Shown here piece by piece: positions 21,691 through 31,455 of a stretch of 32,267 bases of DNA. The notes beneath the pieces were generated by a model that searched no databases, was not told the DNA's origin, and was given only the letters and a program-made list of their open reading frames with translations. Every line of letters starts with the position of its first letter. The first letter of the stretch is position 1. The stretch is taken from the IMG/VR virus record IMGVR_UViG_3300045988_064271. One strand, 5' to 3'. This stretch comes from a virus. A program made the translations under genes and the position numbers.

Positions 21691-22840
21691 TCACTCCAAT
21701 CTCTTTGCAATTTCATAAATGACATTCACCGTCACGCTGTTCCCGGCCTGTTTATACAGTTGCGAATCACTGTTGACCGCAGCTGCACGGTCGAAATATT
21801 CATCCGGAAAACCTTGCAGACGGAAACATTCCCGCGGAGTCAGACGACGGATCCGAATTCCATCGGTTGCGAAATTGTTCTGCTGCCACGAGTTTCCCGT
21901 AAGCGTTGGCGCTTCATTATGCATGCCACCTTTGTTGTAGCCTCGCGGTCTCTGAATCACTGCATACAATCCGGTTTTGGCGCCTCTTCCACCACCCTGC
22001 GATGAAAGCGTTACGCTGATGCCGCTGGGATCATAAACTCTGTTCCCTTGTGATCTGCCTATCACCTGTTTGCAAGTCGCTTCTCTGACCATGACTCCCT
22101 GTCTGTCCTGTGCTGTCAGCGTGAACATTTCATCGCCATTTTCCTTAAACCGCCGGCCATTCTGCCGTTTATTCGGTCTGTCCGGAGTCATGACGGGGAT
22201 TGCTAATCCTCCCCGCCTCTTTGAGACTCCTTTGTGGCTTGTTGCTGTAAGTGCCGGAACTCCCGGCTCGGTTTCCAGTCGTTTCGAATCAGGTACTCCA
22301 TCGTCGCATCTGACAGGAAATACTTTTCGTCCACTTGCTTCTCTAAGATGTCCAACAATGAACACTCTTTCCCGATTCTGGGGAACCCCAAAATGCTTGC
22401 TGTTAAGCACCTGCCATTCGACATCGTACCCCAGCTCATCCATTGTGGATACGATGACTCCGAAGGTTTGCCCCCCCCTCATGATTGAGAAGGCCTCGGA
22501 CGTTTTCTGCGAAAAGTAAACGAGGCTTTCGCTCTCTAGCCAGCCGCATGACTTCAAAAAACAGAGTTCCTCTTGTATCTTCGAAGCCTCTTCGCTTTCC
22601 AGCAATGCTGAAAGCCTGGCATGGAAATCCGAAGCAGTAGCAGTCAGCTTCCGGAAGCTCTTCGGGCTCAACTCTTGTAATGTCATTTGCATACCATTCA
22701 CTCTCCTTCACATTGTGCATCGCTCGGTATGATCTGTCGGCAAACTTGTCTATTTCGCAGTGACCTACACAGGTATGTCCTGCCATTTCCATCCCGAGCC
22801 TAAAGCCACCGATTCCAGAGAAGAAATCAAGAAATCTCAT
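21691..22840 (-). pseudogene. dcm: DNA (cytosine-5)-methyltransferase, split by a +1 frameshift in a G8 tract (22471..22478)
   Basis: The upstream ORF carries FSGIGG, PCQAFS and ENV motifs. The downstream ORF carries QNRERVFIVGH, RRLTPRE and GNSVTV. Removing one G gives a continuous ...ENVRGLLNHEGGQTFGVIVSTMDELGYDVEW... Confidence 0.85.
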
Positions 22841-27120: not shown

Positions 27121-27149
27121 AGTGTAGTCCCTTCCGGGTACTTTGTCAA
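27121..27149 (-). promoter_or_regulatory. Leftward early promoter
   Basis: On the minus strand: TTGACA - 17 nt - TACACT. Confidence 0.6.
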
Positions 27150-27153
27150 TTCT

Positions 27154-27173
27154 TTTTTGTTCCTTCTGGTAAC
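27154..27173. promoter_or_regulatory. Candidate operator, copy 2 of the 20-nt direct repeat
   Basis: Lies between the two divergent -35 boxes. Confidence 0.4.
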
Positions 27174-27180
27174 TTTTTTA

Positions 27181-27209
27181 TTGACCCACTGCATTTGCGG
27201 GGCTATAAT
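27181..27209 (+). promoter_or_regulatory. Rightward promoter of the repressor gene
   Basis: TTGACC - 17 nt - TATAAT, then GGGAGGA and the ATG at 27235. Confidence 0.75.
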
Positions 27210-27234: not shown

Positions 27235-27609
27235 ATGACATATGGAGAAAGGTTAAAAAAATTAAGGAAGCATTTTGGGTTGACGTTGGAGCAGTTCGGG
27301 AATCGTTTAGGCGTTCAGAAAAACACAATCTCCCGGCTGGAGCGCGAAGTGAATGGTTTGACCGATCAGATGGCGACTGCTATTTGCAGAGAGTATGGTG
27401 TGTCAAAAGAATGGCTGCGCGACGGCGAGGGTGAGATGTTTGCTCCGGTAACTAGAAATGAAAAGATTGCCCGGTTTGCAGGGGAACTCATGAAGGACGA
27501 GACGCCGGACTTTCGGCGACAGCTGGTCGAGATCCTGGCTGATCTGGACGACGATGGTTGGGAAGCCCTGGCTTGCTTTGCAGAAAAGCTGGCCGGAATA
27601 AAAAAATAG
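27235..27609 (+). CDS. XRE-family HTH repressor (CI-like, no S24 peptidase domain)
   Basis: MTYGERLKKLRKHFGLTLEQFGNRLGVQKNTISRLEREVNGL is a classic HTH_3 domain. 124 aa. Divergent from the early operon. Confidence 0.85.
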   Translation: MTYGERLKKLRKHFGLTLEQFGNRLGVQKNTISRLEREVNGLTDQMATAICREYGVSKEWLRDGEGEMFAPVTRNEKIARFAGELMKDETPDFRRQLVEILADLDDDGWEALACFAEKLAGIKK

Positions 27610-27631
27610 AGCAGGCACGCTGCCTACTCTA
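27607..27631. terminator. Bidirectional hairpin terminator between the repressor gene and a convergent small ORF
   Basis: TAGAGCAGGCA-cgc-TGCCTACTCTA (11-bp stem with one mismatch). There is a T7 run on the minus-strand side and a weaker T-rich tail on the plus side. Confidence 0.6.
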
Positions 27632-27743
27632 TCATTGCTTTTATAAATGCATGGATCAATTTTACCTGCTCGAAGTTCAACCGCTTCATCATCTCTTCAA
27701 TCTTTTCTACAAAATACTCTTTCCCTTCTTTATTTGTTTTCAT
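27624..27743 (-). CDS. 39-aa helical ORF convergent with the repressor
   Basis: AAGAGGAGG lies 8 nt before the ATG at 27743. Translation MKTNKEGKEYFVEKIEEMMKRLNFEQVKLIHAFIKAMIE. Confidence 0.5.
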   Translation of the reverse strand: MKTNKEGKEYFVEKIEEMMKRLNFEQVKLIHAFIKAMIE

Positions 27744-27855
27744 AATCGGGACCTCCTCTTAGCTTTAGTTTAATACTTTAATTCCGTTTTCGGATTTTTA
27801 TTGCACTCTAATTTTTACACAATTTCGACATAATCCGGCGGAGAAAGGAAAAATC

Positions 27856-28770
27856 ATGACTGTTCAGCAATTCAAAGAAGTAGAGGATTATCGCAAATTC
27901 ACAGCACCTGCAGAACTGCACAAGGCTGTGAATACCCTTCGCGGCCTTGTCGCCGGTATTACTACTGACCGTACCGTTTCGGATGATGAAATCAACGAAC
28001 TGTCTAACTGGTGCCTGGTTAATAGCAGATTTTCGTCGCGCCATCCATTCAGCGAGCTGATTCCTAAAATAAGAGAGATCTATGAGGACGGCATTATCAC
28101 TGAAGAGGAATCTGCGGATATTTTATGGTTGTGCAACAATTTCGTTTCGGATTCCGACTACTACGATCTGATCACATCTTCGATCCAATTTTTGTTCGGT
28201 CTGATGCACGGCGTCATGGCAGACGGCGAGATCAGCGACAAAGAGATCCTGTCATTGTCTGACTGGGTTCGCACAAATCAATATCTTTCCGGCTGCTATC
28301 CGTTTGACGAGCTGGAGAGTCTTATTCTTTCCATTCTTGCAGATGGAAAGATCGACGAGGATGAGCGAAATATTTTAAAATCTTTTTTCAGCAACTTCAT
28401 CGACACGACTTTGTCTTACAATCTAAACGAATCCGAATTGAAAGCACTCCGCGACCAGTACAGTGTCGAAGGCATCTGTTCTATTTGCCAGTCTATCGAC
28501 TTTCCCGGTTCCGTCTTTTCTTTCACCGGGCAGTCTTCAGTTGCCACCAGGCAAGAGATCGCAGAACAAGTCGAATCTCTTGGCGGGATTTTCAAAAATA
28601 ACGTTACCAAAAAAACAAACTATCTGATCGTCGGGAACGAAGGGAATCCGTGTTGGGCGTATTCCTGCTACGGCCGCAAGGTGGATGCTGCGATCAAGCT
28701 GCGCAAATCCGGTATCCCGATTGTGATTGTGAACGAAACGGATTTTTGGGATATCCTCGAAGATCTGTAG
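27856..28770 (+). CDS. Protein with two TerB/DjlA-N-like repeats and a C-terminal BRCT domain
   Basis: Internal duplication: TDRTVSDDEINELSNWC...PFSELIPKIREIYEDGIITEEESADILW against ADGEISDKEILSLSDWV...PFDELESLILSILADGKIDEDERNILKSFF. The C-terminal FSFTGQSSVATRQEIAEQVESLGGIFKNNVTKKTNYLIVGNEG...IVNETDFWDIL is a LigA-type BRCT pattern. Confidence 0.75.
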   Translation: MTVQQFKEVEDYRKFTAPAELHKAVNTLRGLVAGITTDRTVSDDEINELSNWCLVNSRFSSRHPFSELIPKIREIYEDGIITEEESADILWLCNNFVSDSDYYDLITSSIQFLFGLMHGVMADGEISDKEILSLSDWVRTNQYLSGCYPFDELESLILSILADGKIDEDERNILKSFFSNFIDTTLSYNLNESELKALRDQYSVEGICSICQSIDFPGSVFSFTGQSSVATRQEIAEQVESLGGIFKNNVTKKTNYLIVGNEGNPCWAYSCYGRKVDAAIKLRKSGIPIVIVNETDFWDILEDL

Positions 28771-28809: not shown

Positions 28810-30366
28810 ATGAGAATTGCAATCTATGCTCGAAAAAGTGCTTTTTCCGATAAAAGTGAAAGCGTGCACAACCAGGATCGGATGTGCCGTGAGTACTGTG
28901 CTCTTCATTTTCCAGGGGAGCACATTTTTTTGAATTATACTGACGAGGATAAGACAGGAGCGAACACGAACCGGCCAGCACTGCAGAAAATGATGCGAGA
29001 CGTGCATACCGGGATCATCGACTTGTTGATCGTGTACCAGCTGGACCGGCTGACTCGTGATGTGCGAGACTACTGCAATCTATCCGCTGAGCTGAATGAT
29101 TGTGGCGTTCACTTTACATCCGTAAAAGAATCTGTTGATACGTCCACCCCGATCGGCGAAGCGCTGACGACTCTTTCCGCCGTTTTTGCACAGATGGAAC
29201 GAAAAACACTCTCTAATCGTGTTTACGATAACATGATGGGGCTTGCTCGTTCCGGATGGTGGACTGGCGGGAACCTTCCGTGCGGCTACACTACCCGGAG
29301 AGTCGTAGAGAACGGCAAGCCTCACACTCTTCTCGTTCCTGATCCGGAAAAGGCAGAGCAACTGGTCACCGTTTTTAAACTGTTTGTGGAGCGCGGCTCT
29401 TCTTTTCATTCGTTCGCATCATTCGCACTGACGAATGATTGCTTTGATATATTCGGCATTCCGTCAACTTCGCAGGTTCGCCGCGTGATCACGTCCCCTT
29501 ACGGTGCTCCAGCTAACAAGGATCTGCGCAACTACTATCTTTCGATCGGGGCGAACGTGATCGGTGCAGAGTCCGACTGGGATGGTGCCCATGGTGTGAT
29601 GCGGTACGGGGTGACTGACCAGCGCAATGGAACCACCACGAATCCCCGCGAGTCCTGGATAGTGTGTCCCGGCAGGCATGAACCTATCCTGCCCGCAGAT
29701 CTCTGGCTCGCTGCGCAGGATCAGGTCAAGTCAAACATGTTTTGTAAACAGGCAAAGTATCCCCCAGTGCTCCTGAAGGGAATCCTTTGTTGCAAATGTG
29801 GCCGCATGATGTCCCCAGTCCGATCGCGGTACAAAGACAAGATGTACATCTCATACCGCTGCACTCGTACCGGCGAGGTCGGTCGAAAGTCTCCAGACTG
29901 CGTCTCTGCCTGCCGCGACTATGTCTTGGACGAAAAAGTCTTATCCGTTTTCCGCGAGATCGAAAGAGATCCAGAGGTTATAAAAAAGTATTCCCCTGCG
30001 GCACCAGCTACCGATCAGGATGCGCTCCACAAAAAAGAAAAAGAAATCGAATCACTGCAGAAAAAGATCGGCAATCTGTCCTCCGCCCTGGCTATCAATC
30101 CGGAGTCGACAGCGGCGAAGTACATCATTGCAGACATGGAGTCCCTGGATTCGCAGATCCAGAAGAAGCAGATGGAGCTGGCCGGTCTACGAGCGAACAG
30201 GTTGACGGCAGCGCAGGCAGAAAAAGAACTGGCTGCCAAACAAAAGGAGATCGCCCGGCTGGTGCGGAATCTGGATGACCTGCCGCCAGAAGAACAGAAC
30301 AAGATCGCACGCAGTGTGCTGCGCAAATGTGTGTGGGACGGGGATACTCTTTTTTTAGAGTTTTGA
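28810..30366 (+). CDS. int: Large serine recombinase (integrase)
   Basis: MRIAIYARKSAFSD catalytic Ser motif and LIVYQLDRLTRD. Also a recombinase domain, a zinc ribbon (CCKCGRMM...YRCTR) and a C-terminal coiled coil. 518 aa. Confidence 0.92.
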   Translation: MRIAIYARKSAFSDKSESVHNQDRMCREYCALHFPGEHIFLNYTDEDKTGANTNRPALQKMMRDVHTGIIDLLIVYQLDRLTRDVRDYCNLSAELNDCGVHFTSVKESVDTSTPIGEALTTLSAVFAQMERKTLSNRVYDNMMGLARSGWWTGGNLPCGYTTRRVVENGKPHTLLVPDPEKAEQLVTVFKLFVERGSSFHSFASFALTNDCFDIFGIPSTSQVRRVITSPYGAPANKDLRNYYLSIGANVIGAESDWDGAHGVMRYGVTDQRNGTTTNPRESWIVCPGRHEPILPADLWLAAQDQVKSNMFCKQAKYPPVLLKGILCCKCGRMMSPVRSRYKDKMYISYRCTRTGEVGRKSPDCVSACRDYVLDEKVLSVFREIERDPEVIKKYSPAAPATDQDALHKKEKEIESLQKKIGNLSSALAINPESTAAKYIIADMESLDSQIQKKQMELAGLRANRLTAAQAEKELAAKQKEIARLVRNLDDLPPEEQNKIARSVLRKCVWDGDTLFLEF

Positions 30367-30436: not shown

Positions 30437-30465
30437 TTGACACGCCACTCATTGAGTGTTATAAT
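30437..30465 (+). promoter_or_regulatory. Consensus sigma-A/sigma-70 promoter
   Basis: TTGACA - 17 nt - TATAAT exactly, preceded by A-tracts (UP-like). Confidence 0.8.
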
Positions 30466-30596: not shown

Positions 30597-30625
30597 AGGG
30601 CGGAAGCTTCCGCCCTCCCTTTCTT
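30597..30625 (+). terminator. Rho-independent terminator / attenuator
   Basis: AGGGCGGAAGCTTCCGCCCT is a perfect 20-nt palindrome, followed by CCCTTTCTT. Confidence 0.7.
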
Positions 30626-30798: not shown

Positions 30799-30819
30799 CA
30801 TTTAATGGAGGTACAACAA

Positions 30820-31455
30820 ATGAGAAGAGTATTTTTAGAATCAAACGGATACAACATGATCGGATTTATTTTTAGCGATGGTATGGTCGCATTTGACTGC
30901 ACCACGATCGACGAAGCCATCCACATGGACTACAGCGGCGTTCGCGGCTGCAAATCTGCAGAAGAAGCGGCTGTTAACTGCAACACAGAAGTGATCCCAT
31001 TCATCGAAGACGAATGGGAATCCGTCGTAGAAATCGGCGAGATCAAAATTGCCCGCCAGAACGCAGGCATCAGTCAGCAGCAGATGTCGAATCTGTTCGA
31101 CATCCCAAAAAGAACGATTGAAAATTGGGAATCCGGATCCAGATCCTGTCCGGAATGGGCGGAGGATATGATCGTCGAAAAACTGAATCGTTTCCAGCAC
31201 AGACGTCCGATCATGCACGCAATCGCACGCCAGATTGACTGGCTGTGGGATGTGATCTGCAATCCGAAAAACGAAGGAAAAGATATGACTGCGCACGAAG
31301 ATGACATCATCGTGCTTGCGAACGAATATTTCTCACTGCGTGGTCATTCCGGAAGAGTCTCTTTTGTCGCAGGAATGGATGACGAAGCGAACACGGTTTC
31401 TGCAATCCGCGACATGGTCCATCAGGATCGGGGGGAAGACAATGAATCGTGTTAA
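30820..31455 (+). CDS. 211-aa protein with a central XRE-type HTH flanked by unknown N- and C-terminal domains
   Basis: Start at the ATG at 30820, behind GGAGG. The HTH is ARQNAGISQQQMSNLFDIPKRTIENWESGSRSCPEWAEDMIV. Confidence 0.7.
   Translation: MRRVFLESNGYNMIGFIFSDGMVAFDCTTIDEAIHMDYSGVRGCKSAEEAAVNCNTEVIPFIEDEWESVVEIGEIKIARQNAGISQQQMSNLFDIPKRTIENWESGSRSCPEWAEDMIVEKLNRFQHRRPIMHAIARQIDWLWDVICNPKNEGKDMTAHEDDIIVLANEYFSLRGHSGRVSFVAGMDDEANTVSAIRDMVHQDRGEDNESC

What the first reader, a model, noticed from the sequence alone, without database searches (positions are those of the whole stretch)
27856..28770. Duplicated TerB-like repeats fused to a BRCT domain, wedged between the repressor and the serine integrase
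The 304-aa protein has a clear internal duplication. Each repeat has two DG-I-x-x-x-E helices around a W...PF.EL core, which looks TerB/DjlA-N-like. It ends in a textbook LigA-type BRCT domain (F.FTG...R.E....GG.....VTKKTNYLIVG).

It has no catalytic domain and no obvious phage role. It lies on the lysogeny strand directly upstream of int, with only a 39-nt gap, so it may be co-transcribed with int. It is visibly more AT-rich than the structural genes.

Genes at this position in temperate phages are typically superinfection-exclusion or defence cargo, or integration cofactors. BRCT domains bind DNA ends, nicks or phospho-ligands. A BRCT sensor coupled to TerB-like modules would therefore suit a DNA-end or DNA-damage-sensing immunity or induction factor. 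I know of no characterised system with this architecture.
Basis: partly seen in the sequence, partly recalled or inferred. Interest (0 to 1): 0.7.

Follow-up and report, generated by a model that had tools for sequence, protein, structure and literature searches.

The report
Swappable prophage BRCT protein upstream of integrase
This temperate-phage gene encodes a non-enzymatic protein made of two acidic helical repeats and a phosphate-binding BRCT domain; it sits in a swappable cargo slot just ahead of the integrase and belongs to a very widespread family of untested function that most likely acts on DNA ends or nicks, perhaps to protect lysogens from other phages.

Summary
The ORF (27856-28770, +, 304 aa), its internal duplication and its C-terminal BRCT domain are real. 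The BRCT is of the RFC1/LigA class, and its phosphate-pocket residues (T224, G225, R232, K275) are invariant or nearly so.

The "TerB-like" label holds only for a ~22-residue DG-x5-E helix motif. Fold and profile-profile tests find no TerB/DjlA-N domain. The N-terminal half is a distinct, very acidic four-helix repeat with no PDB match.

- The gene is not tied to serine integrases. Ser and Tyr integrases follow it equally often (23 vs 23), usually about 1 kb away.
- It is accessory. Six of 7 sibling phages with a ≥94%-identical integrase carry a lipoprotein or a membrane protein in exactly this ORF-precise slot.
- K139-like Vibrio phages show the same variable cI-int slot.

About 8% of relatives are fused or adjacent to a DEDDh 3'-5' exonuclease. 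That form matches PADLOC candidate PDC-S48.

Best reading (confidence ~0.4): an autonomous, nuclease-less protein encoded in the lysogeny module that binds DNA ends, nicks or another phosphate ligand, and probably serves superinfection defence. No function has been tested in the literature I could search. It is a good experimental lead, not a demonstrated system.

The parts
27856..28770 (+). Gene for the 304-aa repeat-repeat-BRCT protein (stop codon included)
   Evidence: ORF list. Full-length match to phrog_3989, E=3.7e-87. 1,396 homologues.
27904..28155 (+). Repeat 1 (aa 17-100): acidic four-helix unit with D38-x6-E45, W52 and D78-G79-x5-E85
   Evidence: AF2 helices 19-35, 43-55, 65-76 and 83-94. 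Net charge -8. Invariant G30, G34, E45, W52.
28156..28410 (+). Repeat 2 (aa 101-185): acidic four-helix unit with D123-G124-x5-E130, W137, P149 and D163-G164-x5-E170
   Evidence: AF2 helices 105-120, 128-140, 150-161 and 168-179. Net charge -11. 35% identical to repeat 1.
28411..28491 (+). Linker with one helix (aa 186-212); the least conserved segment
   Evidence: AF2 helix 192-202 and low pLDDT at 205-209. Between-clade identity 0.08.
28492..28767 (+). BRCT domain (aa 213-304) of the RFC1/LigA class, with pocket residues T224, G225, R232, K275
   Evidence: Pfam BRCT above cut-off. PDB RFC1 BRCT alignment. Foldseek. Residue conservation 66-67 of 67.
27744..27855 (+). AT-rich intergenic region with the RBS (GGCGGAGAAAGGA). 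It is shared by sibling phages whatever cargo gene follows, and is the presumed promoter/5'UTR of the cargo-int transcript.
   Evidence: Alignment of siblings is homologous up to the cargo ATG. Only a weak promoter-like match at 27825-27854, so the promoter is inferred, not shown.
28810..30366 (+). Large serine integrase, 39 nt downstream, probably co-transcribed
   Evidence: Pfam Resolvase, Recombinase and Zn_ribbon_recom. Homology between siblings resumes exactly at its ATG.
27235..27609 (+). HTH (Xre/CI-type) repressor candidate, 124 aa from the ATG at 27235; no S24 peptidase domain
   Evidence: Pfam HTH_19/HTH_3. The same 124-aa gene is called in L065. Divergent promoter-like sites at 27181-27209 (+) and 27149-27121 (-).
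27624..27743 (-). 39-aa ORF (MKTNKEGKEYFVEKIEEMMKRLNFEQVKLIHAFIKAMIE) with a strong RBS. It is convergent with the repressor and divergent from the BRCT gene.
   Evidence: Sequence. Called in L065/L066. Present in all 7 sibling phages at 54-97% aa identity.
27605..27633 (.). 13-bp-stem hairpin between the repressor stop and the end of the 39-aa ORF. It is terminator-like on the minus strand and separates the repressor transcript from the BRCT gene.
   Evidence: Terminator scan.

Best explanation
The gene is an accessory 'moron' in the cargo slot immediately 5' of the integrase, in the lysogeny module of a temperate phage that probably infects a gut Lachnospiraceae-type Firmicute. It encodes an autonomous, non-enzymatic protein.

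Shown here:
- The C-terminal BRCT domain keeps the complete T-G/R/K phosphate-binding pocket.
- Relatives are repeatedly fused or adjacent to DEDDh 3'-5' exonucleases or to a LigA-type HhH2-BRCT tail.
- The N-terminal half is two strongly acidic four-helix repeats with invariant Asp/Glu pairs.

Inferred:
- The BRCT pocket binds a phosphate-bearing ligand, most likely a 5'-phosphorylated DNA end or nick. This rests on the use of the same pocket in RFC1.
- The acidic repeats regulate or gate the BRCT domain, for example by cation or partner sensing, or by autoinhibition of the DNA-binding face.
- The protein is made together with Int from the conserved upstream region. In the lysogen it acts on incoming foreign DNA: it either caps ends or nicks so they cannot be sealed or replicated, or it guides a nuclease supplied in trans. 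The effect would be intracellular superinfection defence.

The nuclease-fused relatives (PDC-S48 type) would be the 'armed' version of the same targeting module.
For: Slot and accessory status:
- Seven IMG/VR siblings share a ≥94%-identical integrase, the repressor and the 39-aa ORF. Only one has this gene; five have a 171-aa lipoprotein and one a 252-aa TM-anchored protein in the same place.
- Homology runs up to the cargo ATG and resumes at the int ATG.
- K139 has cI-orf2-glo-int. The K139 GenBank record annotates a PL 'lysogenic operon' promoter immediately upstream of cI.
- The relative PV94 has two unrelated genes there. A V. cyclitrophicus relative has HEPN, MazG and HNH cargo.
- Prophages with an identical protein (P0076) differ in a neighbouring Fic / Abi_2 / empty slot.
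- About 17 of 50 immediately downstream neighbours in viral loci hit PADLOC models: PDC-S03, PDC-S17, PDC-S20, RmrA, AbiD, PifA, QatA, capP and DEDDh.

BRCT and pocket:
- Domain evidence.
- T224 is present in 66 of 67 members; G225, R232 and K275 in 67 of 67.
- The same TG-containing pocket binds DNA phosphate or DNA ends in RFC1, PAR in XRCC1, and phosphopeptides in tandem BRCTs (PMC9359705, PMC6334254).

DNA link:
- Fusions exo-repeat-repeat-BRCT, repeats-BRCT-exo and repeats-BRCT-HhH2-BRCT.
- Stand-alone exonuclease genes lie 17-55 nt away in 7 loci.
- The PDC-S48 model consists of exonuclease + repeat + BRCT.

Autonomy and spread:
- 3,144 clusters at 50% identity carry the repeat.
- At least 213 species genomes from Bacillota, Verrucomicrobiota, Planctomycetota, Spirochaetota and γ-proteobacteria carry it.
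- No conserved partner gene was found.
Against: - No experiment exists for any member. I could not obtain the original K139 control-region paper. The K139 record annotates Glo, not orf2, as involved in phage exclusion.
- The window protein has no effector domain, and the window encodes no DEDDh exonuclease, so any killing or blocking mechanism is conjecture.
- PDC-S48 is itself only a candidate system.
- Conservation is high and uniform across domains, with about 45% identity across phyla and no hypervariable region. That is unusual for arms-race sensors and would also fit a housekeeping-like interaction with a conserved host machine.
- The ligand of the BRCT pocket is unknown and need not be DNA.
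- Expression in lysogens is inferred from position only.
- The alternative slot occupants (lipoprotein, TM protein) have unknown function themselves.
Confidence: 0.4

Rival explanations
1. Lysogeny or induction modulator. The protein senses DNA damage (5'-P junctions or nicks) or shields DNA or RecA substrates, and so tunes prophage induction or maintenance. The precedent is 434 Hex, which is co-expressed with the repressor.
For: - In 53 of 60 viral loci the gene lies just downstream of, and co-oriented with, a CI/Xre-type repressor.
- In K139 it lies directly downstream of cI, within the cI-to-int gene block that follows the annotated PL lysogenic promoter.
- The window repressor lacks an S24 autocleavage domain, so some accessory induction route is needed.
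- BRCT domains act as DNA-damage sensors in eukaryotes.
- The Hex precedent is PMC3564112 (listed).
Against: - Partner repressors are of unrelated types: HTH-only, S24, P2-type CI, ImmR/ImmA.
- Six of 7 sibling phages with the same repressor family lack the gene and carry a lipoprotein or TM protein instead.
- In the window a terminator and an opposing ORF separate it from the repressor.
- 47 loci have no repressor or integrase detected nearby.
Confidence: 0.15
2. Host-fitness moron unrelated to phage defence. It would be a DNA-repair or stress-tolerance accessory, for example recruiting or competing with host LigA, clamp-loader or exonucleases at nicks, that benefits the lysogen.
For: - RFC1/LigA-class BRCT.
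- High cross-phylum conservation suggests a conserved cellular target.
- In non-prophage loci some neighbours are repair or housekeeping genes such as IMS polymerase and RNase HII.
- Links to DEDDh exonucleases and HhH2 domains resemble repair-protein architectures.
Against: - There is no conserved chromosomal context or partner.
- Occurrence is patchy and accessory, concentrated in prophage lysogeny modules and next to defence-type genes.
- It is nearly absent from plasmids.
Confidence: 0.15
3. Counter-defence or immunity decoy. A nuclease-less paralogue occupies the same DNA ends, nicks or ligand as exonuclease-BRCT (PDC-S48-like) systems, or sponges a phosphate-bearing nucleotide signal. 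This would protect the phage or prophage from such systems.
For: - It is the exact architecture of the exo-repeat-repeat-BRCT proteins minus the nuclease.
- It sometimes lies adjacent to exonuclease genes.
- In XRCC1 the BRCT pocket binds poly(ADP-ribose) (PMC6334254).
Against: - The adjacent downstream exonucleases have no BRCT or repeat detected by my family HMMs. That fits a split two-subunit enzyme better than a toxin/immunity pair.
- About 92% of loci have no linked exonuclease.
- Placement on the lysogeny strand next to int is unusual for anti-defence genes, which are normally early lytic genes.
Confidence: 0.12
4. Integration or excision cofactor of the serine integrase (an RDF-like or directionality factor).
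For: - 39-nt gap to int, with probable co-transcription.
- The BRCT domain could bind DNA at att sites.
Against: - Ser and Tyr integrases are equally frequent downstream (23/23). Only 5 of 46 are directly adjacent, and the median gap is 1 kb.
- Six of 7 phages with the same integrase (≥94% identity) lack the gene.
- Many loci have no integrase.
Confidence: 0.03

Closest known systems
Vibrio phage K139 Orf2 (K139p03; also Kappa kp3) and PHROG family phrog_3989
   Same: Same full-length architecture (two repeats plus BRCT, ~300 aa): 27% identity over 89% of the protein, and phrog_3989 E=3.7e-87. Same place in the genome: after the repressor and before int, on the lysogeny strand.
   Different: The host phylum, the integrase type (tyrosine) and the phage type (P2-like) all differ. 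In K139, orf2 follows cI directly and is followed by glo. No function is assigned to either protein.
PADLOC candidate defence system PDC-S48 (DEDDh exonuclease-repeat-BRCT single-gene candidate)
   Same: The window protein aligns to positions 234-406 of 411 of the model, covering one repeat plus the BRCT. Fused relatives with the exact exo-repeat-repeat-BRCT layout exist.
   Different: The window protein lacks the DEDDh exonuclease, which is the only catalytic part, and it has two repeats. PDC-S48 is itself a candidate only; I found no paper that mentions it.
BRCT domains of RFC1 (p140) and bacterial NAD+-dependent DNA ligase LigA
   Same: These are the best sequence and structure matches. The phosphate-pocket residues are conserved: RFC1 T415/G416/R423/K458 correspond to T224/G225/R232/K275. 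The residue numbering comes from my memory of Kobayashi et al. 2006/2010; the role of the pocket comes from PMC9359705 and PMC6334254.
   Different: There is no clamp-loader or ligase catalytic domain. Database labels such as 'NAD-dependent DNA ligase' or 'DNA polymerase III epsilon' for family members are misannotations based on the BRCT tail alone.
TerB / DjlA-N (Pfam PF05099) and DUF533
   Same: A helix-loop-helix motif, hydrophobic-x-(A/E)-D-G-x5-E, occurs four times. TerB is the commonest non-BRCT Pfam hit across the family: 28 of 67 members at E≤1, best 7.9e-5.
   Different: No domain-level similarity. The score is below the gathering threshold, there is no Foldseek hit, and hhalign aligns 22-27 columns only. 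The same motif also matches YmfL and EF-hand loops.
Superinfection-exclusion and defence morons of temperate phages located between repressor and integrase (for example λ rexAB, lactococcal Sie2009, S. thermophilus Ltp, K139 Glo)
   Same: Same genomic niche and accessory, swappable behaviour. Alternative occupants of the slot are a lipoprotein and a membrane protein, the classes to which Ltp and Sie2009 belong (established knowledge).
   Different: This protein is cytoplasmic, acidic and DNA/phosphate-binding, not a membrane or surface blocker of injection. No exclusion phenotype has been shown.

Membership tests
BRCT domain (Pfam PF00533) | Profile score above the curated gathering threshold | tested here: met
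   32.2 bits against a cut-off of 21.3, aa 213-271. 66 of 67 family members hit BRCT.
BRCT domain (Pfam PF00533) | β-α-β-α-β-α fold superposable on solved BRCT domains | tested here: met
   AF2 secondary structure at 220-303. Foldseek probability 1.00 to RFC1 (2ebu, 2k7f), Rad4, XRCC1 and LigIII BRCTs.
Phosphate-binding BRCT subclass (RFC1/LigA/XRCC1-BRCT1 type) | Conserved T/S-G, Arg and Lys pocket residues | tested here: met
   T224 (66/67), G225, R232 and K275 (67/67), aligned to the RFC1 'ITG...R' segment. Ligand binding itself is not testable here.
NAD+-dependent DNA ligase (LigA) | Adenylation, OB-fold, Zn-finger and HhH domains | tested here: not met
   Only the BRCT tail of the LigA models matches (model positions 582-631 of 652). 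Scores are 34 bits against a cut-off of 444. There are no other Pfam domains.
TerB / DjlA-N (Pfam PF05099) | Profile score above the gathering threshold over the domain | tested here: not met
   14 bits against a cut-off of 24.4, matching only aa 160-180. The best family member reaches E=7.9e-5.
TerB / DjlA-N (Pfam PF05099) | Domain-level profile-profile or fold similarity | tested here: not met
   hhalign against a DjlA-N profile: 22-27 columns, probability <1%. Foldseek of the pLDDT-91.5 N-terminal model against PDB: best E=0.8, with no TerB entries among the 50 matches listed. Caveats: the DjlA profile has low diversity, and AFDB and HHpred-Pfam were not available.
PADLOC PDC-S48 (candidate) | N-terminal DEDDh 3'-5' exonuclease domain | tested here: not met
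   The window protein matches only model positions 234-406. There is no exonuclease ORF anywhere in the window.
PADLOC PDC-S48 (candidate) | Repeat plus BRCT C-terminal module | tested here: met
   E=8.4e-7 over aa 116-302. The same region matches in K139 Orf2, the Marin protein and P0076.
YmfL family (NCBIfam NF041471) | Score above the curated cut-off (90 bits) | tested here: not met
   22.9 bits. 20 of 32 repeats hit weakly, but hhalign to E. coli YmfL aligns 21 columns only, at probability 14.6%.
Prophage accessory (moron) / superinfection-defence gene | Variable presence among closely related phages at a fixed slot | tested here: met
   Present in 1 of 7 siblings, with ORF-precise replacement. 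K139 vs PV94 shows the same pattern.
Prophage accessory (moron) / superinfection-defence gene | Expressed in the lysogen and protects against other phages | not testable with these tools
   Needs RNA-seq and plaque assays. The only indirect support is position and the K139 record's 'lysogenic operon' promoter annotation upstream of cI.
Integrase accessory factor (RDF/cofactor) | Strict co-occurrence with one integrase family | tested here: not met
   Ser 23 and Tyr 23 downstream. Only 5 of 46 are adjacent. Absent from 6 of 7 phages with the same integrase.

The most novel reading that the evidence does not exclude
The two acidic four-helix repeats plus a phosphate-pocket BRCT form a new, autonomous DNA-end/nick-sensing immunity module with a previously undescribed fold. 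It works without any enzyme of its own, by capping or marking incoming phage DNA. In a minority of lineages it is 'armed' by fusion or operon linkage to a DEDDh exonuclease. This would make it a widespread (>3,000 clusters, at least five phyla) new class of prophage-borne defence.
Probability: 0.3. Interest if true: 0.75.

Novelty: new variant of a known kind. Interest (0 to 1): 0.58.

Why it matters
If the best reading holds, this family would be one of the commonest uncharacterised occupants of the repressor-integrase slot of temperate phages, in hosts from gut Firmicutes to Vibrio and Pseudomonas.

It would define a defence (or host-manipulation) principle based on recognising DNA ends or nicks through a bacterial or phage BRCT domain. 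BRCT domains have had almost no assigned role outside LigA in prokaryotes.

It would also explain the candidate system PDC-S48 as targeting module plus nuclease, and add a new helical repeat fold. On the practical side, K139 orf2 in V. cholerae offers an immediately tractable genetic system.

Even if the function turns out to be different, the ORF-precise cassette swapping next to int, seen in seven sibling phages, is a clean example of how lysogeny-module cargo is exchanged.

Tried and rejected
1. TerB/DjlA-N homology. I tested it by Pfam on 67 members, Foldseek of a dedicated N-terminal model, a PDB profile search and hhalign against a DjlA-N profile. Only a short motif is shared, so I rejected it as a domain assignment.
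2. YmfL homology, suggested by NCBIfam. hhalign to E. coli YmfL shows the same short motif only. YmfL has no known function anyway: its overexpression gives no filamentation (bioRxiv 10.1101/2020.11.19.390815).
3. Ligase or Pol III epsilon identity, as some databases label family members. Rejected, because only the BRCT tail matches.
4. Integrase cofactor. Rejected on distribution.
5. A conserved partner gene in Verrucomicrobia, Planctomycetes and Spirochaete loci. None was found; the neighbours are heterogeneous.
6. Plasmid carriage. Essentially absent: 6 partial hits in 72,556 plasmids.
7. Known relatives of the phage. No close relative in INPHARED.
8. Literature. Ten full-text searches and several papers yielded no functional data on K139 orf2, PDC-S48 or BRCT proteins in prophages. 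The original K139 paper (Nesper et al. 1999) was not held.
9. Annotation of the alternative slot occupant (the 171-aa lipoprotein). No informative homologue in phage records or PDB.
10. A hypervariable 'sensor' region. Not seen; all domains evolve at similar rates.
Full report
**1. The observation**

A good RBS (GGAGAAAGGA) lies just upstream.

The internal duplication is genuine. Residues 24-105 align without gaps to 109-190, with 29 of 82 identical (BLASTP E=1e-14). The BLOSUM62 score is 9.9 SD above 20,000 shuffles.

The motifs are present as described. D-[G/R]-x5-E occurs at 38, 78, 123 and 163. W..PF.EL occurs at 52 and 137.

The C-terminus is a bona fide BRCT domain:
- Pfam PF00533 scores 32.2 bits against a cut-off of 21.3.
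- NCBIfam matches only the BRCT tails of LigA and of an exonuclease-BRCT protein family, PRK06195.
- The closest PDB sequences are the RFC1 BRCT domains.
- An AlphaFold2 model (mean pLDDT 81.4) shows a β-α-β-α-β-α unit at 220-303.
- Foldseek superposes that unit on RFC1, Rad4/TopBP1, XRCC1 and LigIII BRCTs at probability 1.00.

No catalytic domain is detectable. The 39-nt gap to the serine integrase is correct. The GC content is 0.459 against 0.501 for the window, which is correct but modest (9th percentile).

**2. The 'TerB-like' claim does not survive beyond a short motif**

For the window protein, Pfam TerB scores 14 bits (cut-off 24.4) on residues 160-180 only. Across 67 family members, TerB is the commonest non-BRCT hit: 28 members at E≤1, best 7.9e-5. 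DUF533, which I recall as being in the TerB clan, matches 10 members. So there is a consistent weak signal.

Three further tests fail to extend it to a domain:
- A dedicated model of residues 17-205 is very confident (pLDDT 91.5, pTM 0.88). It shows two four-helix units plus a linker helix. It has no significant Foldseek match in PDB (best E=0.8), and no TerB or DjlA entries appear among the 50 matches listed.
- A profile of the 83-residue repeat unit finds nothing in PDB sequences. The top chance-level hits are EF-hand loops of the 'D-G-x-I-T-x-E-E' type.
- hhalign against a DjlA-N profile aligns only 22-27 columns around 'ADG-x5-E', at probability <1%. The precomputed Pfam labels on the DjlA hits confirm that this domain is PF05099.

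The NCBIfam YmfL signal (20 of 32 repeats) reduces to the same 21-residue motif when tested against E. coli YmfL.

My conclusion is that the N-terminal half is a distinct, unannotated repeat that shares only a helix-loop-helix motif with TerB, YmfL and EF-hands. It is strikingly acidic. Net charge is -8 and -11 for the two repeats here, with family means of -9.5 and -10.8, whereas the BRCT averages +2. Asp/Glu pairs at spacing i/i+7 are invariant or nearly so.

**3. The BRCT pocket**

In the HMMER alignment to RFC1, the family's F-T-G...R segment matches RFC1's I-T-G...R. The family's G-R-K motif corresponds to the G-x-S-K of RFC1 and LigA.

T224 is conserved in 66 of 67 members. G225, R232 and K275 are conserved in all 67.

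The literature held here states that this pocket has three known uses:
- It mediates phosphopeptide binding in tandem BRCTs.
- It binds poly(ADP-ribose) in XRCC1.
- It binds DNA ends in RFC1.

The TG motif contacts a DNA backbone phosphate in RFC structures (PMC6334254 and PMC9359705).

It is shown that the pocket is intact. It is inferred that it binds a phosphate-bearing ligand, most probably a 5'-P DNA end or nick.

**4. Family and architectures**

The protein matches phrog_3989 (unknown function) over its full length. It has 1,396 homologues at E≤1e-3 in the protein collection.

Distant full-length relatives include Orf2 of Vibrio phage K139 and Kappa (27% identity). A large γ-proteobacterial clade also exists. 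One-repeat forms occur in Pseudomonas phages, and an exonuclease-BRCT form occurs in a Streptococcus satellite.

An exhaustive search with the repeat profile finds 3,144 clusters at 50% identity with E≤1e-3, of which 1,608 have E≤1e-10. A pattern scan of one genome per species finds at least 213 species. They span Lachnospiraceae, Oscillospiraceae, Bacillaceae, Syntrophomonadaceae, Verrucomicrobia, Planctomycetes and Spirochaetes, at 42-65% identity.

Longer variants are informative:
- DEDDh exonuclease (RNase_T)-repeats-BRCT
- repeats-BRCT-exonuclease
- repeats-BRCT-HhH2-BRCT

In the fetched loci, four proteins are exactly exo-repeat-repeat-BRCT. Seven loci have a separate exonuclease gene 17-55 nt away. 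The downstream exonucleases among these have no BRCT or repeat detected by my family HMMs, so they look like a split two-gene version.

The PADLOC candidate PDC-S48 consists of exonuclease + one repeat + BRCT. The window protein matches only its non-catalytic part. The window encodes no such exonuclease.

**5. Genomic context**

In the window the gene order is:
- an HTH repressor (27235-27609, no S24 domain);
- a hairpin terminator (27605-27633);
- a 39-aa minus-strand ORF with a strong RBS (27624-27743);
- a 112-nt AT-rich intergenic region;
- the BRCT gene;
- 39 nt;
- the serine integrase.

The gene is therefore not in the repressor transcript here. It probably shares a transcript with int.

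Across 60 IMG/VR loci, 53 have a CI/Xre-type gene upstream on the same strand within 1.1 kb, and 46 have an integrase downstream on the same strand. The integrases split 23 serine to 23 tyrosine, and only 5 are directly adjacent. The median gap is 1 kb. These are lower bounds from crude HMMs, and the loci are not all independent.

Upstream repressors are of several unrelated types. Downstream neighbours are highly variable, and about 17 of 50 hit PADLOC models.

Prophages that carry an identical BRCT protein (P0076) have Fic, Abi_2 or nothing between it and int.

In 47 loci, mostly Verrucomicrobia, Planctomycetes and Spirochaetes, no repressor or integrase was detected. Their neighbours are heterogeneous. 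They include Schlafen-type helicases, ResIII, AbiEii-like AAA, ABC-3C, Fic and integrases, mixed with housekeeping genes. No partner is conserved. The gene is almost absent from plasmids.

**6. Accessory status (the decisive result)**

I used the window's integrase as an anchor. Seven IMG/VR phages have a ≥94%-identical integrase together with the same repressor family and the 39-aa ORF. Only one carries the BRCT gene.

Five carry a 171-aa protein with a classic lipoprotein signal (MKKILSVILLSFLILGLCACGSGG...). One carries a 252-aa N-terminally membrane-anchored protein.

The DNA alignments show homology through the terminator, the 39-aa ORF, the intergenic region and the RBS, up to the cargo ATG. 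After that the sequences diverge completely. Homology resumes exactly at the int ATG.

So the BRCT gene is one allele of an ORF-precise cargo slot that uses shared upstream signals. The same logic holds in K139-like phages:
- K139 has cI-orf2-glo-int.
- PV94 has two unrelated genes there.
- A V. cyclitrophicus relative has HEPN, MazG and HNH cargo.

This rules out a core role in lysogeny or integration. It places the gene among lysogeny-module morons. From established knowledge, the characterised examples of that class are mostly superinfection-exclusion or defence genes: rexAB, Sie2009, Ltp and Glo.

**7. Mechanism**

Shown:
- the slot and its swapping;
- an intact phosphate-pocket BRCT of the RFC1/LigA class;
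- acidic tandem repeats with a confident but unmatched fold;
- recurrent fusion or operon linkage to DEDDh exonucleases and HhH2;
- an autonomous, patchy distribution across phyla.

Inferred:
- The protein is produced with Int from the conserved upstream region.
- The BRCT binds 5'-P ends or nicks.
- The acidic repeats gate or regulate this, or bind a partner or cation.
- In the lysogen the protein interferes with incoming linear or nicked phage DNA, or guides a nuclease supplied in trans.

I put this at about 0.4. The rivals are scored separately: an induction modulator, a host repair or stress moron, an anti-defence decoy, and an integrase cofactor. The integrase-cofactor idea is essentially excluded by distribution.

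**8. Comparison with what is known, and novelty**

The family is catalogued as phrog_3989, as NCBI 'BRCT domain-containing protein' and as K139 orf2. I found no functional study of it. Labels such as 'NAD-dependent DNA ligase' or 'DNA polymerase III epsilon' are BRCT-tail misannotations.

It is best described as a nuclease-less, two-repeat variant of the unvalidated PDC-S48 candidate family, occupying a classical prophage cargo slot. I therefore rate it 'new variant of a known kind'.

The N-terminal fold and the role of a prokaryotic BRCT outside LigA would be new biology if confirmed. The interest is moderate to high as an experimental lead, and K139 orf2 is directly testable. Nothing about function is demonstrated yet.

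Noticed in passing
window 27624-27743 (-), with hairpin 27605-27633: A 39-aa ORF (MKTNKEGKEYFVEKIEEMMKRLNFEQVKLIHAFIKAMIE) with a strong RBS lies between the repressor and the cargo slot, convergent with the repressor and sharing a hairpin terminator with it. It is present in all 7 sibling phages (54-97% aa identity) whatever the cargo. Its function is unknown; a small regulator, antirepressor or RDF candidate is possible.
   Followed up: partly
L155:3978-4493, L157, L159-L161 (171-aa lipoprotein); L158:3731-4489 (252-aa TM protein): These are the alternative occupants of the same slot in sibling phages. One is a lipoprotein with the lipobox LGLCAC and an acidic mature part. The other is an N-terminally anchored, Lys-rich protein. 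Both have the look of Gram-positive superinfection-exclusion proteins, but neither has an annotated homologue in phage records or PDB.
   Followed up: partly
window 30437-30465 and 30597-30616: A perfect consensus σ70-type promoter (TTGACA-17-TATAAT with an upstream TG) lies 70 nt after the integrase stop. A GC-rich hairpin terminator follows about 130 nt later. This could be a short transcript, or the attP/host junction region.
   Followed up: no
window 27121-27209: Back-to-back promoter-like sites, 27181-27209 (+, 11/12) and 27149-27121 (-, 10/12), lie between the repressor and the oppositely oriented early genes. This is a classic PRM/PR-type switch region.
   Followed up: no
window 30805-31455 (+): A 216-aa protein with a weak central HTH_3 match is encoded beyond the integrase. 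It is unclear whether it belongs to the phage, to the host flank or to another element.
   Followed up: no
window 22309-22630: This is the only stretch with nucleotide similarity to isolated phages: 73-87% to DNA-cytosine methyltransferase genes of Streptococcus suis phages. The rest of the phage has no close relative in INPHARED.
   Followed up: no
L067-L072 (prophages carrying P0076): Prophages with a 100%-identical BRCT protein are integrated next to cotJB/cotJA spore-coat genes. They differ in a second cargo slot (Fic, Abi_2 or empty) and in repressor allele (123 vs 128 aa). A conserved 79-aa ORF sits between the repressor and the BRCT gene.
   Followed up: partly
P0255 (551 aa), P0341 (498 aa), P0383 (1057 aa): These long proteins carry the two repeats but have no Pfam domain at all, not even BRCT. 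They may be further architectures with unknown effector domains.
   Followed up: no
L124, L129 and other Verrucomicrobia loci: In Verrucomicrobia the gene often follows a ~800-aa Schlafen-group-3/DUF2075-type helicase, and in L124 also a MazG-like gene. This suggests defence-island contexts outside prophages.
   Followed up: partly
L033, L034, L094, L039 (genes 17-21 nt downstream of the BRCT gene): These stand-alone DEDDh exonucleases carry an extra 120-150-aa N-terminal region of unknown nature and have no detectable BRCT or repeat. They look like a split two-gene version of the exo-repeat-repeat-BRCT fusion.
   Followed up: partly
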